From positions 224,001 to 288,000 of the forward strand of contig CAVSHB010000004.1 in NCBI GenBank assembly GCA_963727775.1: a stretch of 64,000 bases of DNA, written 5' to 3'. Source of the DNA: an uncultured Nitrospiraceae bacterium (lineage in GTDB: Bacteria > Nitrospirota > Thermodesulfovibrionia > Thermodesulfovibrionales > SM23-35). The notes under the pieces were generated by a model, which was not told the origin of the DNA, made no database searches, and worked only from the letters and a program-made list of their open reading frames with translations. Positions 5,065 to 11,737 of this stretch are shown one piece after another; the stretch's first letter is position 1, and every line of letters starts with the position of its first letter. The position numbers and the translations under genes were made by a program.

Positions 5065-6004
5065 ATTTAATTATAGACAATAACTACAAAAATATCCTGT
5101 GACTTCAAAATATTTTACCGGTTTAATGTGCGTATTACTCTGGGGTGTAATATTTATCAGCACAATAAGCCTTTATCTGTATAACACTGCTTCCTTGTAG
5201 TCATCAAGCGCTAATTTTTTAATAATATTGTATATTATACTTATAATTAATCGGATAAAAAGATTGACAATGAATCTCGAGGAGACAATAAAATTAGCTT
5301 TTGAACATTATCAAGCAGGAGATTTTTTACAAGCAGAATTAGCATGTAAAAAAATATTGGAAATTCAGTCAGATAATGGTCAAATCCTTCACCTTTTAGG
5401 TTTAATATATTATGAGCGTGGAAACTATGATTTGGCTATGGATTATTTAACAGATGCACTTGTTTCTATGCCGAAAAATGAAGATTTATATTATGATATT
5501 GGCAATGTTTTTCAAGAAAAAAACCAACTTGATGAAGCTTTAACCTATTATCAAAAAGTGCTACAGTTAAATCCTGTCTATATTAACGCATACAACAACA
5601 TTGGGATTATTTATCATGACAAAGGGCAACTTGACGAAGCTATAGCTACCTATCAAAAAGCTTTGCGGATAGATGGGAATAACGATATTGTTAATAACAA
5701 TATAGGACTTGTTTTTCAGGAAAAAGGACAACTTGATGAAGCTATAATGTACTATGAAAGAGCAATAAAAAAAAATCCTTATTATGCTGTTGCTTATTAT
5801 AATATAGGTATTATCTTTTTTAGGAAAAAACAATTCGATAAAGCTCTACATTCTTTTATAAAAGTTATACAAATTGATCCCACTTTTACTGATGTATATT
5901 TTAATCTTGGTGATGTATATTTTAATCTTAGCAAGCTTGATGATGCTGTAAAATGTTATAAAAAAACAATCTCCAATAATTCAGATTACATCCCGGCCTA
6001 TCTT

Positions 6005-7387
6005 GATAGCGTAAGATCAATTCTGCAAATATGAATCAGGGTATAATTCTCAATGGAAAAAGCAATCTCTCAAAGAGAGAAAGGAGAATTATACCCATGA
6101 GAAGAATTTTATCAAAGAAGGCGAAAAAAGTCATTGAGGATGGAGTGCAGGAGTTTATGGCGATGCCCCCGTTAGCGGAGTTGACGAGGATCGGAGCGAG
6201 GATGATGTTAGAGTCGGCGATGGAAGAAGAAGTGACGGCATATCTTCAGAGAGACTATTATGAGAGGAATGCCTGCGCTAAAGGAAGCCGGAGTGGATCG
6301 AAGCCCAGAACCGTGAAGATCGGTAGCGGTGATATAGGGCTAAAGATGCCGCAGGTAAGGAATGCCGGTGGCCCATTTCATTCCCGGATATTGCCGCCAC
6401 GGATGACCCAGATGGATGAAATACAGGAAATCATCCCTCTTTTGTATATGAACGGCCTGTCCAGCAGGAAGGTAAAGAAAGCTGTGGGTAAACTCATAGG
6501 CAAGAAAGGCCTGAGCCATCAGAATGTCATAAGGATCAGCGGCAGGATCGTCGATGAGTTCAATGCATGGAAGAAGCGGGACTTATCGATGCTGCAGGTG
6601 GTGTATCTTGTTCTGGACGGCGTACGGATGGGAGTAAGGGCCGGGACCAAGGAGAAAGAGGCGGTGCTGGTGGCCTGGGCGTTTCTGGAGGACGGCAGCC
6701 GGGAGCTCGTGGGCGTGTCCCTTGGCAACAGTGAATCGTACAATGCGTGGAAAGGTTTTCTGGAGGATCTCACGAAACGGGGCATAAGTGAACCAATGCT
6801 CACGGTTATCGATGGCTGTCCCGGCCTTATCAAGGCGGTGGATGAAGTCTTCCCTGAATCAGACAAACAGCGCTGCACGAAGCACAGGACTGAAAACGTG
6901 CTGGATAAAGTACTGGAACAGGACAAGGCATCAGTAAAAGAGTCAGTAAGGAAGGTGTTTTACGCCTCGACCTATGAGCACGCAAAGGAGGCCGTGGAAA
7001 TGTTCAAGAAGAAGTGGCGCATGAAATATCCTTCGGCAGTGGAATGCCTGACTGAAAATATAGAAGACTGTCTGACCTATTACAAATATCCTTACCAGCA
7101 CTGGCTTAGAATTCGGACGACCAATATAGTGGAGAGGAGCTTCAAGGAGGTGAAGCGAAGGGTAAAGGTAGCAGGCCGGTTTCAGAAGGAGGAGCGTGCG
7201 CTCACCATGGTTTACTGGCAGCTCCACGAACTTAGATGGAACGGTGTAAGCATGACCAAGGAGGCAAAGGCAATCCTTACGAGGATCCGGGCATCAAGGA
7301 TGCAAAGGGTTGCGGCATAATCGTATCAATGAAAACCCTTGAGAATAAAGCCCTGAAGAGAATTTACAGAAAAGACTTGACACTGTC
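6005..7387 (+). mobile_element. IS256-family element, copy 2 (complete, 1383 bp)
   Basis: 8-bp target duplication CCTATCTT at 5997-6004 and 7388-7395; imperfect 26-bp terminal IRs GATAGCGTAAGATCAATTCTGCAAAT / GACAGTGTCAAGTCTTTTCTGTAAAT (rc). Confidence 0.96.
6031..7320 (+). CDS. IS256-family transposase (true start probably ATG 6097 after AAGGAG)
   Basis: LYMNGLSSRKV, YLVLDG, DGCPGL, QRC and RTTN motifs. Confidence 0.95.
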   Translation: MNQGIILNGKSNLSKRERRIIPMRRILSKKAKKVIEDGVQEFMAMPPLAELTRIGARMMLESAMEEEVTAYLQRDYYERNACAKGSRSGSKPRTVKIGSGDIGLKMPQVRNAGGPFHSRILPPRMTQMDEIQEIIPLLYMNGLSSRKVKKAVGKLIGKKGLSHQNVIRISGRIVDEFNAWKKRDLSMLQVVYLVLDGVRMGVRAGTKEKEAVLVAWAFLEDGSRELVGVSLGNSESYNAWKGFLEDLTKRGISEPMLTVIDGCPGLIKAVDEVFPESDKQRCTKHRTENVLDKVLEQDKASVKESVRKVFYASTYEHAKEAVEMFKKKWRMKYPSAVECLTENIEDCLTYYKYPYQHWLRIRTTNIVERSFKEVKRRVKVAGRFQKEERALTMVYWQLHELRWNGVSMTKEAKAILTRIRASRMQRVAA

Positions 7388-8954
7388 CCTATCTTCGATT
7401 AGGGTTGATTTTAAGTTATCAAGGGAGAAACGATGAAGCAATAAATATTTACGACCAAGTTTTGAAAATAAGGCCCAATTTTTTTAAAGCATACTATTTG
7501 CGATGCATGTCTCAACTTCCAGCCATTTATCCTGATCAATCGAGCATTCAGATTTCACGTATCAGATATCTTGAAGAACTTAATACACTACATAAGATTC
7601 TTTCTTTAGAAACCGAGCAGGATATTGAAGAAGCATCTCAAGCTATTGGCACTCAGCAACCTTTCTTTTTAGCATACCAAGGGTTAAATGATCGTGATCT
7701 GCAGCAACTATATGGTGATTTAGTTTCTAGAATTATGAAAACAAGATTTCCTCAATGGGCTTATCGACCCAATATGCCTCCAGTTTCGTCTGAAGGGCTT
7801 TTAAGGGTTGGCATAGTATCAGCCTTTTTTTGGGATCATTCCAATTGGAAGATTCCAATCAAAGGATGGGTTAAGAATTTAAATAAAAAGCATTTTGAAT
7901 TATATGGATATTATACGGGCAAATGCAAAGATAAGGAAACAGAGGACGCGAGACATTGTTTTACTCACTTTTATGAGGATATAGACTCTTTTGAAAATCT
8001 TTGCCAGATTATTTACGAGAATAATCTTCATGTTCTTATTTATCCTGAAATAGGAATGGACCCAATAACAGTAAGGCTTGCATCTTTAAGACTATCACCT
8101 GTGCAATGTACATCATGGGGACATCCTAATACATCAGGTCTCCCGACTATTGATTATTTTCTTAGCAGTGATCTGATGGAGCCCCCTTATGCTGAGCATC
8201 ATTATACTGAACAACTGGTCCGTTTACCCAATCTTTCAATATGCTACACTCCAACAGATGTTATTCCAGATGAAACAAATCGAGAAAAACTTGGACTACG
8301 TCCAAATTCGATCCTTTATCTTTGCTGTCAAGCACTTTATAAATATTTACCTCAATATGATGATATATATCCGCGTATCGCCCAACAGATTGAAGATTGT
8401 CAATTCCTTTTTATTTCCTGCCATCTCAGCAATTGGGTGACCGAGAAATTTCGTTTGAGGCTCGAAAAAGTATTCAAAATGTATAATCTCAACGCCGATG
8501 ATTATATAGTATTTCTCCCACGTCTTGATCAGGAACAATATTATGCTGTCAATCGTCTTTCTGATATATACCTGGACAGTATTGGCTGGTCAGGATGTAA
8601 CACCACCTTGGAAGCTATTGCCCATAATTTACCAATCCTGACTCTGCCCGGTAAATTAATGCGCGGAAGGCATAGCTCAGCAATTCTTAAAATGATGGGG
8701 ATATCAGATACCGTTGCCTCTGAACTTGATGAATATGTTGAAAAGGCAGTCCGTTTGGGTCTGGATAAAGAATGGCGCAAACAGATATCTGAAAAAGTTG
8801 CTGCAAAGAAGCATCTTGTTTATCGAGATAAAACCTGTATTACTGCCCTTGAGGATTTTCTTGTTGCAGTAGTACAAGAAAAGCTCAATTAAGTTATCAA
8901 TGATCTTTAACAAAAAATATCTTCCATTTTGTTGCATATTTGATCTGTTAATAT

Positions 8955-9476
8955 TCAATTTTCAGCGGGAGTCACTTGTGCCTGGTCAATATGCTGTGTA
9001 TTTAATGTTTGCCAGCGTGCGTCATGGGCAAGACGAATTGCTGCGGCTCTTGTTGGGGTACAACCAATGGTACTGGCAAGCTCTCTGTCATAAATGTTTC
9101 GATGTTCCCAGTCATCCAGCATAATAGGAGTACCACTTGGATACGAAGTCAGCAGGTTGCCAAGCCGTAAAATCCGAAGAACAAGAGCATGCATTGTCGA
9201 TACGTGAACTTGAAGTGCAGTTGTGGCACATAGTTGGTTGCTGCAGAAAGTCTGTATTCTTGAACGGAGTTCAGCGCATGCGGCACGGGTAAAGGAAATT
9301 ACATAAACATTGTCAGAATTTGCACCGTTATTAAGTAAGTCAGCTACCCTTTTTTCGATTGTATAAGTTTTACCAGTGCCTGGCCCAGCGACCAGTCGTA
9401 TCTGACGTGCGCTGTCTCTTGCTGCCACCCATTGTTGTTGCTCTGCTGCCGCTCTTTGTGTTGCTGTTATAGGCAT
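8955..9476 (-). pseudogene. UvrD/Rep-like SF1 helicase, N-terminal fragment
   Basis: RLVAGPGTGKT Walker A, ISFTRAA motif Ia and STMHAL motif Ib; stops at 173 aa, before the Walker B region. Confidence 0.75.
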
Positions 9477-9793
9477 AACAAGTCTTCTCTCTTAAGTTTT
9501 ACCTTTGGATTTCTGAGTTGTCTTTTATTCCTTGGGACTGTTAATTATACAAAGCCTTTATGCATTTTAACAGATTTAGATATTGTTAGTTTAGGAGAGA
9601 GATCTCTTGTCCCCACAGGCACGCTTGGTAAAGAGGGTTTCTTTTGAAAAGCGATAGTGCTTGCGAGATGTCAGCAATGCGGAGCTTGCTATATTGTTGT
9701 AGAGTTAGGCCTTGTTAAAGAAGGCTATACTCTTTCTTGATTCAGACCAATGTGCGAGTTGGTTAAATCCAAACCAAAGAAAGGAGTATAGCC

Positions 9794-11056
9794 ATGAAGA
9801 AGAGTAAAACAAAAAAGTTTAAAGTAGTCAATGGTAGAACGATGATTGTGACAGCTGATATGGGAAAGGATAGACATTTTGGATACTGGCGCTGTCCGGA
9901 CGGAAGCGATGTGAAGCCCTTTGCCTTCTGGAACAACGGCAGGGGTTTCCAAGAGTTCTGGGATCGTGTATCTTATGCCAAAAAGCTCCATAACATCGAA
10001 GATATTGTTTTTGGATACGAGTCCACCGGGCCGTATGCCGAACCTCTTGTTCATTTCATGCGTGCGAGAGGCGTACACATGGTACAAGTAAGCCCTATGC
10101 ACACTAAGAGGCTTAAGGAGCTTCAGGGTAATTCGCCGAACAAGACCGACCAGAAAGACCCAAAGGTTATCGCTGATATTATGGCACTTGGCCACGCCCT
10201 GACTGTAGTGATCCCGGAAGGTCCAGCGGCCGAACTCAGGAGGCTCACTCAGGCCAGGGAAAGGAGCAACGAGCGTTATGTATCCCTGGTGAACCAGCTC
10301 CAGAGCTTGCTTGCGATTATCTTTCCTGAGTTTTTGCAGGTAATGAAGGATGTAAAGACGTTGACTGCCCGATATCTCCTTGCGCAGTGCCCAGCACCCA
10401 AGGATATTGTCGCGTACGGTCTTGATAATTTGAGTGCAACGATCAATAAGGTCAGCCGCGGAAAGCTGAAGGAAGATCGCGCCAAGGCCCTCTATGAGGC
10501 TGCAACAGCTTCTATAGGTGTAACCGAAGGCATGACGAGCATTATACGTGAGATAAGAGAACTTCTTATCGCCATGGACGCTGCTGAGTCCTTTACCGGG
10601 GATCTGGAAAAGGAAATGGGGTATTATCTGAAGCAGATTCCCTACAGTGGCTCGATCCTCTCGATAAAGGGGATTAAAGAGGTTACCACTGCCGGTCTTA
10701 TCGGTGAAGTGGGTGATTTTCGGAAGTTTCAAACCCTCTCCGAGATCCTAAAGCTCGCAGGGCTGGACCTTTATGAGATCAGTTCTGGCCAATACAAGGG
10801 GAAGCGACGCATATCTAAGCGAGGCCGTCACCTGCTGCGTAAACTTTTGTACTTTGCCTCGCTCAACACAGTCCGCAGAGGTGGAATAATGCACGATCAA
10901 TATCAAAAGTACCTTGAGCGGGGCATGCCTAAGACCAAGGCGCTGATCGCCGTAGCAAGAAAACTTCTTGGAATCATATTTGCTGTTGTGCGTGACCAAA
11001 GTGTATACAAAAAAGATTTCTCTATAGTCTCACTTCAATACCAGGAGGCTGCATAA
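9794..11056 (+). CDS. IS110-family DEDD recombinase/transposase
   Basis: ADMGK, YESTG and KTDQKD (RuvC-like DEDD), SIKGI..TTA, and SSG..KGKRRISKRG (catalytic Ser region of the C-terminal Tnp domain); RBS AAGGAG upstream. Confidence 0.95.
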   Translation: MKKSKTKKFKVVNGRTMIVTADMGKDRHFGYWRCPDGSDVKPFAFWNNGRGFQEFWDRVSYAKKLHNIEDIVFGYESTGPYAEPLVHFMRARGVHMVQVSPMHTKRLKELQGNSPNKTDQKDPKVIADIMALGHALTVVIPEGPAAELRRLTQARERSNERYVSLVNQLQSLLAIIFPEFLQVMKDVKTLTARYLLAQCPAPKDIVAYGLDNLSATINKVSRGKLKEDRAKALYEAATASIGVTEGMTSIIREIRELLIAMDAAESFTGDLEKEMGYYLKQIPYSGSILSIKGIKEVTTAGLIGEVGDFRKFQTLSEILKLAGLDLYEISSGQYKGKRRISKRGRHLLRKLLYFASLNTVRRGGIMHDQYQKYLERGMPKTKALIAVARKLLGIIFAVVRDQSVYKKDFSIVSLQYQEAA

Positions 11057-11070
11057 CTTATAGTATTGGC

Positions 11071-11512
11071 GTGTAAGCGGGGAGATTACCGACCTGATAC
11101 CTAAGGCGGCTGAGCCGACCTTCATGCGGAGCTTGTAACTCCCCGCTTGCACCTTAGTCTCGATTAAGCAAGGTCAGGGCTCTGTTGAGACCCTCGAATT
11201 ACCAGTGTCAGGCAAGGTGCTACACCAAAGACTAAAGTGACTTCCTCCTAATGGAGATGGAAGTGAGAAGGTTGATATAAGGTTAAGTGAAAGGAGCCAA
11301 GAGGAGGCATAAAAAAGAGAAACGCCGAATCCAGGGGATACCGTAATATGGGTCATGCTGAGATAATCGATCCTATAGCTTTCTACGAAGCCGCTTTTTC
11401 AGAATTGGCTCTCAAACATGCAGAATGGATTACGTAATGAGACAAGGGATCTGGGGGCAAAGAACGAAGCAGAAACCATTGAAGCCAGGAAACCTTAGTA
11501 GTGGCTTGTCTC
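11071..11512 (+). ncRNA. Candidate IS110 bridge/seek-type guide RNA (multi-domain)
   Basis: Stems 11071-11089/11135-11152 (enclosing a 13x12-nt internal loop), 11154-11160/11229-11235, 11240-11264 and 11439-11446/11505-11512. No credible ORF; lies downstream of an IS110 transposase. Confidence 0.65.
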
Positions 11513-11543
11513 TATCAGAGGGGAGTTACTCCGTAAAAAGTTC

Positions 11544-11549
11544 TTGACA
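11544..11549 (+). promoter_or_regulatory. Outward-facing -35 hexamer TTGACA at the IS110 right end
   Basis: Pairs at 17-bp spacing with TATACT (9726-9731) in the predicted circle junction. Confidence 0.65.
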
Positions 11550-11737
11550 ATAATAAACCAGTAGAAGGTGGACTGAGCATGGTTAGAATATCGCCTCCCG
11601 CAAGTTAGTTCTAACAAAAATCATTCCTCCTTAAACTTCAAAGTAATTTCATCTGTTCTTCATAATGCTGTAACTTTGGAACTATATACTTTTTTACAAC
11701 TAATAAAATCCTGAAACTTTTCAACGGAGTGAAATTA

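What the first reader, a model, noticed from the sequence alone, without database searches (positions are those of the whole stretch)
9666..11135. Both strands of the IS110 RNA domain-1 loop match an intact site just outside the predicted left end
Seen: the loop 3' strand ATGCGGAGCTTG (11124-11135) is identical to 9677-9688. The loop 5' strand CTGATACCT (11094-11102) is the reverse complement of the adjacent AGATGTCAG (9666-9674) at 7/9, or 8/9 counting one G-U. The two halves are separated by CA. This one-guide-per-strand arrangement is what a guide loop produces, yet the site is uninterrupted and ends about 34 bp before the inferred crossover. Inference: either a guide-specified docking site offset from the insertion point (which would be new for IS110), or the true left end lies further left, or this is an RNA-RNA/autoregulatory contact. 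The 9-nt half is weak on its own.
Basis: partly seen in the sequence, partly recalled or inferred. Interest (0 to 1): 0.78.

Follow-up and report, generated by a model that had tools for sequence, protein, structure and literature searches.

The report
Ordinary bridge-RNA target loop, misplaced end
The match is the normal fingerprint of an RNA-guided jumping gene: its guide RNA spells out the site it inserted into, and that site is split across the two ends of the element rather than lying intact beside it, so this is a new example of a known mechanism.

Summary
The 12-nt identity (11124-11135 = 9677-9688) is real and not chance, but the site is not intact or offset: it is the element's left junction. 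Four copies in the genome share window 9678-11570. In homologs an AG precedes the constant left-end motif in 70 of 70 and 65 of 65 junctions found, placing the cores at 9683-9684 and 11560-11561. The loop 3' strand covaries with the 6 nt left of the left AG (4.25/6 vs 2.01 shuffled; replicate 4.59 vs 2.29). The loop 5' strand covaries with the flank right of the RIGHT AG (5.52/7 vs 3.32; replicate 5.96 vs 3.75). It does not track the adjacent 9-mer: 9666-9674 reaches 7/9 in 1 of 133 loci, the window itself, so it is chance. Domain 1 is the target-binding loop and domain 2 the donor-binding loop of a 3'-encoded bridge/seek RNA, guides in IS1111 order; joined ends give a -35/17/-10 promoter. Known mechanism (Durrant 2024; Siddiquee 2024), new member. 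The scan has noted such elements on other DNA. Unexplained: three of four copies share the same two guide mismatches. Nothing was tested by experiment.

The parts
9666..9674 (+). Chance match, not part of the system
   Evidence: Not shared by the other 3 copies; 7/9 in 1 of 69 and 0 of 64 loci
9677..9682 (+). Left target half (host DNA), read by the left target guide
   Evidence: 6/6, 6/6, 5/6, 5/6 identity to the loop in the four copies; covariation in homologs
9683..9684 (+). Left copy of the AG core (crossover)
   Evidence: AG precedes the element-side motif in 70 of 70 and 65 of 65 left junctions found
9685..9793 (+). Left non-coding end (109 bp); starts with the right donor half, holds the -10-like box at 9690-9695
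   Evidence: Constant across homologs while the flank varies; spacer calculation
9794..11056 (+). IS110-family DEDD recombinase, 420 aa
   Evidence: PF01548 and PF02371 above cut-off; NF033542 189 bits vs cut-off 140; weak match to IS621 structure 8wt6, E 1e-7
11076..11147 (+). Bridge/seek RNA domain 1 = target-binding loop (outer stem, internal loop, hairpin 11103-11122)
   Evidence: Fold z -3.67 for 11057-11280; consensus fold of 116 distinct sequences, 24 of 38 pairs over both domains with 3 or more compensatory rows
11092..11100 (+). Right target guide: complementary to the top strand at the right junction (11561-11569)
   Evidence: 9/9 in copy C1:345349, 7/9 in the other three; homolog covariation 5.52/7 vs 3.32 and 5.96/7 vs 3.75
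11124..11131 (+). Left target guide including the AG core (11130-11131); same sense as the top strand, so it pairs with the bottom strand
   Evidence: Covariation 4.25/6 vs 2.01 and 4.59/6 vs 2.29
11132..11135 (+). Bases after the core that equal the first element bases 9685-9688; handshake-like role inferred for 11132-11134; 11135 is a stem base pairing with 11089
   Evidence: C in 43 of 47, T in 30 of 47, T in 43 of 47, G in only 7 of 47 elements; 11089-11135 pair
11149..11220 (+). RNA domain 2 = donor-binding loop; 11167-11172 is complementary to 9685-9690 and 11201-11205 equals 11557-11561
   Evidence: Match in 42 of 46 (6 nt or more) and 46 of 47 (5 nt or more) distinct homolog rows with the end found; compensatory change in L064 and L067; uncompensated changes in L013, L018, L043
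11544..11549 (+). -35 box; lies 17 bp from the left-end -10-like box once the ends are joined at the AG core
   Evidence: TTGAC conserved in homolog right ends
11560..11561 (+). Right copy of the AG core
   Evidence: Conservation drops from about 90% to 30-70% immediately after it (the AG itself was part of the search anchor)
11562..11569 (+). Right target half (host DNA); 6 of 8 match to the right target guide, mismatches at 11564-11565

Best explanation
The element runs from the AG at 9683-9684 to the AG at 11560-11561 (1877 bp with one core copy). It is an IS110-family bridge-recombinase element whose RNA is encoded downstream of the recombinase. [quoted passage not shown] Insertion at the AG split that target, so one half sits at each end. 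The 12-nt identity is 6 nt of left target + AG core + the first 4 nt of the element, which the loop also matches (handshake-like positions plus one stem base). Domain 2 reads the joined ends (donor). Shown by sequence comparison: the ends, the core, both guide-flank pairings, the fold. Inferred from published IS110 systems, not shown here: RNA expression, protein binding, circle formation, junction promoter activity, handshake function.
For: Four genome copies delimit the shared unit. AG core in 70/70 and 65/65 left junctions found with an anchor that does not contain it. Guide-flank covariation in two collections, 0 of 5000 shuffles reaching the observed value in all four tests; per-position identity on the diagonal 0.63-0.91 for positions -5 to -1. 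An uninterrupted paralog at G000 C1:489955-490005 aligns without a gap across the rejoined flanks of one copy, 86% over 51 nt, E 1.7e-10. Joined ends give TTGACA-17-TATATT. L093, from a metagenome, carries the same right guide and a right flank matching it at 7 of 8. Guide order matches that reported for IS1111 seekRNAs (PMC11187229).
Against: Three of four own copies mismatch the right guide at the same two positions. Position -6 of the left guide does not covary (0.20). Only 1 of 4 rejoined empty sites found an uninterrupted paralog. Homologs are related, so the shuffle counts overstate significance. No read showed a circle junction or empty allele and no RNA data were available.
Confidence: 0.95

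Rival explanations
1. One reading: an intact guide-specified docking site (9666-9688) offset about 34 bp from the insertion point.
For: 7/9 (8/9 with U-G) match beside the 12-mer in this one copy.
Against: Absent from the other three copies (1, 3, 3 of 9); no excess in homologs (2.52 vs 2.29, 338 of 5000 shuffles, window included; replicate 1.77 vs 2.16, 4995 of 5000); the 12-mer straddles the crossover; the same guide strand has a covarying partner at the right junction.
Confidence: 0.01
2. The mobile unit is larger (9678-11570, bounded by TG), the loop is a donor-type loop reading the joined ends, or the copies carry the previous target halves with them.
For: Three copies are identical over 9678-9684 and 11562-11570, including two mismatches to the guide; all four have TG at both edges. 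No uninterrupted site within 1 mismatch of the window copy's site exists in the genome.
Against: In homologs these positions vary between copies and between elements and follow the guide. A donor-loop reading would put the core at the 5' end of both guides, unlike IS621 (PMC11208160). Rejoining at TG found no uninterrupted paralog, 0 of 4, whereas rejoining at AG found one. The 17-bp promoter spacing and domain 2 both fit the AG junction.
Confidence: 0.04
3. RNA-RNA or autoregulatory contact between the loop and a left-end transcript.
For: An antisense transcript across 9660-9695 could pair with the loop (duplex -28.3 kcal/mol), which follows trivially from the identity.
Against: Same-strand identity cannot pair; the site lies upstream of the predicted -10 box, so outside the junction-promoter transcript; the matched bases are host flank that changes with each insertion, and DNA targeting explains both junctions at once.
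Confidence: 0.01

Closest known systems
IS1111-family seekRNAs (ISEc11, ISKpn4, ISPa11; Siddiquee et al. 2024, PMC11187229; read: parts 1-3 of 9 and passages)
   Same: RNA downstream of the recombinase, short left end, top-strand guide 5' of the bottom-strand guide, promoter formed by joined ends, natural reprogramming among relatives.
   Different: Recombinase is 420 aa (paper: 330-350 aa for IS1111, 395-455 aa for the IS110 subgroup); no near-perfect 11-13 bp sub-terminal repeat across the clade; a duplicated AG core; a simple second internal loop matching the donor. The paper notes that some IS110-group elements have a downstream non-coding region.
IS621 bridge RNA and recombinase (Durrant et al. 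2024, PMC11208160, passages; Hiraizumi et al. 2024, PMC11208158, passages; PMC13626964, part 1 of 8)
   Same: Two internal loops, target loop first and donor loop second; dinucleotide core included in the guides and present at both junctions; guide bases beyond the core that match the other partner after exchange (handshake).
   Different: IS621 encodes the RNA in the left end, has a CT core and a 326-328 aa protein, and has the left guide 5' of the right guide; its handshake guides were defined next to the top-strand guides, whereas the extra match here lies next to the bottom-strand guide.
CazIS110-1 (bioRxiv 10.1101/2025.10.25.684509; part 1 of 5 and passages)
   Same: About 170-nt two-loop RNA described as pairing with the left and right junctions of the inserted element.
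   Different: Position of its RNA, its core and its relatedness to this element could not be read from the text seen (figures not held).

Membership tests
IS110 family (broad, including IS1111 group) | DEDD RuvC-like domain plus C-terminal Tnp domain with SG motif | tested here: met
   PF01548 and PF02371 above cut-off; NF033542 above cut-off; candidate motifs located at residues 20, 75, 117 and 329; not tested biochemically
IS110 family (broad, including IS1111 group) | Structured non-coding RNA region in one end | tested here: met
   z -3.67; compensatory pairs in 116 distinct sequences. No Rfam family matches
Bridge/seek RNA systems | Target loop with one guide per strand that covaries with the two target halves | tested here: met
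   two collections
Bridge/seek RNA systems | Donor loop matching the joined ends | tested here: met
   Conserved matches in 42 of 46 and 46 of 47 rows; covariation evidence is thin (2 compensated, 3 uncompensated cases)
Bridge/seek RNA systems | Promoter created across the joined ends | tested here: met
   TTGACA, 17 bp, TATATT in sequence; activity not tested
Bridge/seek RNA systems | RNA expressed, bound by the recombinase, circle formed | not testable with these tools
   No RNA holder listed; contigs of 4 DNA runs gave no informative joint
IS1111 group (strict) | Non-coding region downstream of the gene; top-strand guide before bottom-strand guide | tested here: met
   Left end 109 bp, right end about 505 bp; guide order
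IS1111 group (strict) | Near-perfect 11-13 bp sub-terminal inverted repeats | tested here: not met
   Best register gives mean 7.3 of 13 and a median perfect run of 4 over 98 end pairs; the window element reaches 10 of 13
IS1111 group (strict) | Recombinase of 330-350 aa | tested here: not met
   420 aa; range from PMC11187229
IS110 group (strict) | Phylogenetic placement among IS110-group recombinases | not tested
   No tree with named reference elements was built; placement is inferred from length and the weak terminal repeat only

The most novel reading that the evidence does not exclude
Three of the four copies sit in unrelated surroundings yet share identical target halves with the same two mismatches to the guide. 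The most novel reading not excluded is that this element copies or carries the target halves of its previous site into new sites (flank co-transfer or conversion), which the papers read here do not describe. A short host motif family as target is the simpler explanation.
Probability: 0.05. Interest if true: 0.6.

Novelty: new member of a known kind. Interest (0 to 1): 0.2.

Why it matters
The claimed novelty (offset docking site) is gone. What remains is a cleanly resolved member of a known RNA-guided recombination mechanism, in a lineage of about 420-aa recombinases with an AG core, a downstream two-loop RNA and IS1111-type guide order. The two collections gave 47 and 57 distinct guide pairs (5 shared), a ready natural data set on mismatch tolerance and a possible additional bridge-recombinase scaffold. 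I did not find this lineage named in paper searches, but ISfinder, figures and supplements were not seen, so it may already be catalogued.

Tried and rejected
Offset docking site: rejected. Donor-loop reading with a TG core at 9678-9679 and 11569-11570, my first idea: rejected on homolog variability, guide polarity. Crossover with unlike cores at 9685-9686 and 11562-11563: same length arithmetic, dropped because the shared AG explains both junctions. Regex searches for empty sites in the own genome were made before the register was known and gave only leads. Empty allele in relatives: DNA search of 60 relatives found element homologs in 5 and no flank matches; none is of the same genus. Sequencing runs: no RNA holder listed; contigs of 4 of the 14 runs listed covered neither junction informatively. 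Exact loop sequence in metagenome contigs: 0 hits. Rfam: nothing significant. Target hairpin as in ISPpu10 (bioRxiv 10.64898/2026.03.19.712850, passages): only 1 of 4 rejoined sites folds better than shuffles (z -2.5), so not general. Plasmid search gave only relatives of about 31-34% identity in the 20 of 1607 records listed, with no element names. Rows dropped: set 1, 78 of 89 loci had the RNA, 70 a left and 71 a right junction; set 2, 76 of 80 had the RNA, 3 more lacked the hairpin anchor, 65 had a left and 63 a right junction; elements without a parsed guide or junction were left out of each test (39-40 of 47 and 48-50 of 57 used). Also read without bearing on the verdict: bioRxiv 10.64898/2026.08.14.744561 (passages) and 10.64898/2026.08.31.748434 (part 1 of 6).

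Full report
Observation. The 12-mer at 11124-11135 is identical to 9677-9688 and this is beyond chance (three matches at up to one mismatch, shuffled mean 0.35, 0 of 100 shuffles reach three). The 9-mer at 9666-9674 does pair with 11094-11102 at 7 positions plus one U-G. The ORF 9794-11056 is a 420-aa IS110-family recombinase, and 11057-11280 folds better than all 200 shuffles.

Where the ends are. The genome holds four near-identical copies. They share window 9678-11570 with 1 to 4 differences from the window copy; three of the differences in copy C1:345349 fall at 9680, 11564 and 11565. So no crossover lies 34 bp right of 9688, and 9666-9674 is not shared. To separate element from target I collected homologs: 75 loci from genome contigs plus 14 from the own genome and relatives, and later 80 from metagenome contigs. 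Junctions were located with element-side motifs only. An AG stands directly before the constant left-end motif in 70 of 70 and 65 of 65 junctions found; sequence left of it is variable, and at the right end conservation falls off directly after the AG that ends the constant motif. In the window these are 9683-9684 and 11560-11561.

What the loop reads. Over distinct guide pairs, the 6 nt before the AG in the loop 3' strand match the 6 nt left of the left AG at 4.25 of 6 (shuffled pairing 2.01; 40 elements, 68 sites) and, in the second collection, 4.59 (2.29; 50 elements, 63 sites). The loop 5' strand is complementary to the 7 nt right of the right AG at 5.52 of 7 (3.32; 40 elements, 60 sites) and 5.96 (3.75; 48 elements, 59 sites). 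None of 5000 shuffles reached the observed value in any of these four tests; the elements are related, so these counts overstate significance, but only 5 guide pairs are shared between the sets. Only the window copy reaches 7 of 9 (1 of 69, 0 of 64), and such a match is expected within 10-40 bp 4-16% of the time. In the own genome the loop 5' strand 11092-11100 pairs 9 of 9 with the right junction of copy C1:345349 and 7 of 9 in the other three. L093 carries the same right guide and a right flank matching 7 of 8.

Why 12 nt and not 8. The identity runs 4 nt into the element. After the AG the loop has C in 43, T in 30, T in 43 and G in 7 of 47 elements, and the last G is a stem base. The first three resemble handshake positions, which in IS621 pair with the other partner after strand exchange (PMC11208158, passages); the role here is inferred, and it lies beside the bottom-strand guide.

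Independent checks. Rejoining the flanks of copy C1:345349 at the AG aligns without a gap to an uninterrupted paralog at G000 C1:489955-490005 (86% over 51 nt); the other three rejoined sites found no paralog. Joining the ends at the AG puts TTGACA (11544-11549) 17 bp from TATATT (9690-9695). Domain 2 holds a stretch complementary to the first 6 element bases and a stretch equal to the last 5, conserved in 42 of 46 and 46 of 47 homolog rows; two loci show a compensated change, three an uncompensated one. The consensus fold of 116 distinct sequences supports both domains, with the guide columns the most variable.

Mechanism. Shown: ends, core, guide-flank pairing, fold. Inferred from IS621, ISEc11 and CazIS110-1: the element circularises at the AG, the junction promoter drives recombinase and downstream RNA, the target loop opens the target with one guide per strand, the donor loop holds the circle junction, and recombination at the AG leaves half the target at each end. 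No expression or circle was observed: no RNA holder was listed and laid contigs were uninformative.

Relation to known systems. It works like a bridge/seek RNA system and meets every sequence feature of one that could be tested. RNA position and guide order are those of IS1111 elements (PMC11187229), but it fails two strict IS1111 features: the protein is 420 aa and the sub-terminal repeat is short and imperfect in the clade (7.3 of 13 over 98 end pairs; 10 of 13 in the window element). It is best described as an IS110-family element of the long-recombinase type with a downstream RNA; Siddiquee et al. mention such exceptions. No tree was built. Earlier notes of this scan describe similar elements in other genomes; none matches this sequence or place.

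Left open. Three copies share the same two mismatches to the right guide (11564-11565) and identical halves in unrelated surroundings; the sites match the guide-predicted 16-mer at 14, 14, 15 and 13 positions, and the genome holds 25 uninterrupted sites within 3 mismatches against 2-23 for 8 shuffled guides. Related motifs occur uninterrupted elsewhere and homologs often sit in repeat-like flanks, so a host motif family is the likely reason; flank co-transfer is not excluded.

Verdict. Real match, wrong geometry. New member of a known kind; interest 0.2.

Noticed in passing
window 11235-11540: The right end is about 505 bp after the stop codon, the longest among parsed homologs (189-394, 198-354). 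The extra 300 bp matches only the own copies and, weakly, L081; one metagenome contig follows it at about 92%. Non-coding cargo or a second RNA is possible.
   Followed up: partly
window 11562-11570 and the equivalent positions at G000 C1:783803 and C2:300487: Three independent insertion sites share the same right target half with the same two mismatches to the guide.
   Followed up: partly
G000 C3 near 558808 (-), C2 near 240547 (-), C1 near 489987 (+), C2 near 681726 (+): Uninterrupted target-like motifs whose downstream bases resemble the flanks of occupied sites, suggesting a small host motif family of unknown role.
   Followed up: partly
L005-L007, L012, L019-L028, L029, L042, L044, L078: Different elements of the clade sit in different short repeat-like or palindromic flanks that match their guides.
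   Followed up: no
L002, L004, L013, L049, L053 and others: The right guide and right flank are sometimes offset by one base relative to most elements, suggesting register flexibility next to the core.
   Followed up: no
L009, L010, L014, L041, L079, L080, L096, L099: In these elements the AG of the left guide lies one base further along the loop.
   Followed up: no
window 5228-8892: An IS256/Mutator-family transposase (6031-7320) lies between a TPR-repeat ORF and a glycosyl transferase 41 ORF, probably one interrupted gene.
   Followed up: no
window 8955-9476 (-): A 173-aa ORF holding only the N-terminal part of a UvrD-type helicase, apparently truncated.
   Followed up: no
G000, whole genome: tblastn finds 17 further hits to more distant IS110-family recombinases (22-48% identity), including a split 47-48% relative at C2:272969-275759; another multi-copy element begins about 30 bp right of the C2 copy.
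   Followed up: no
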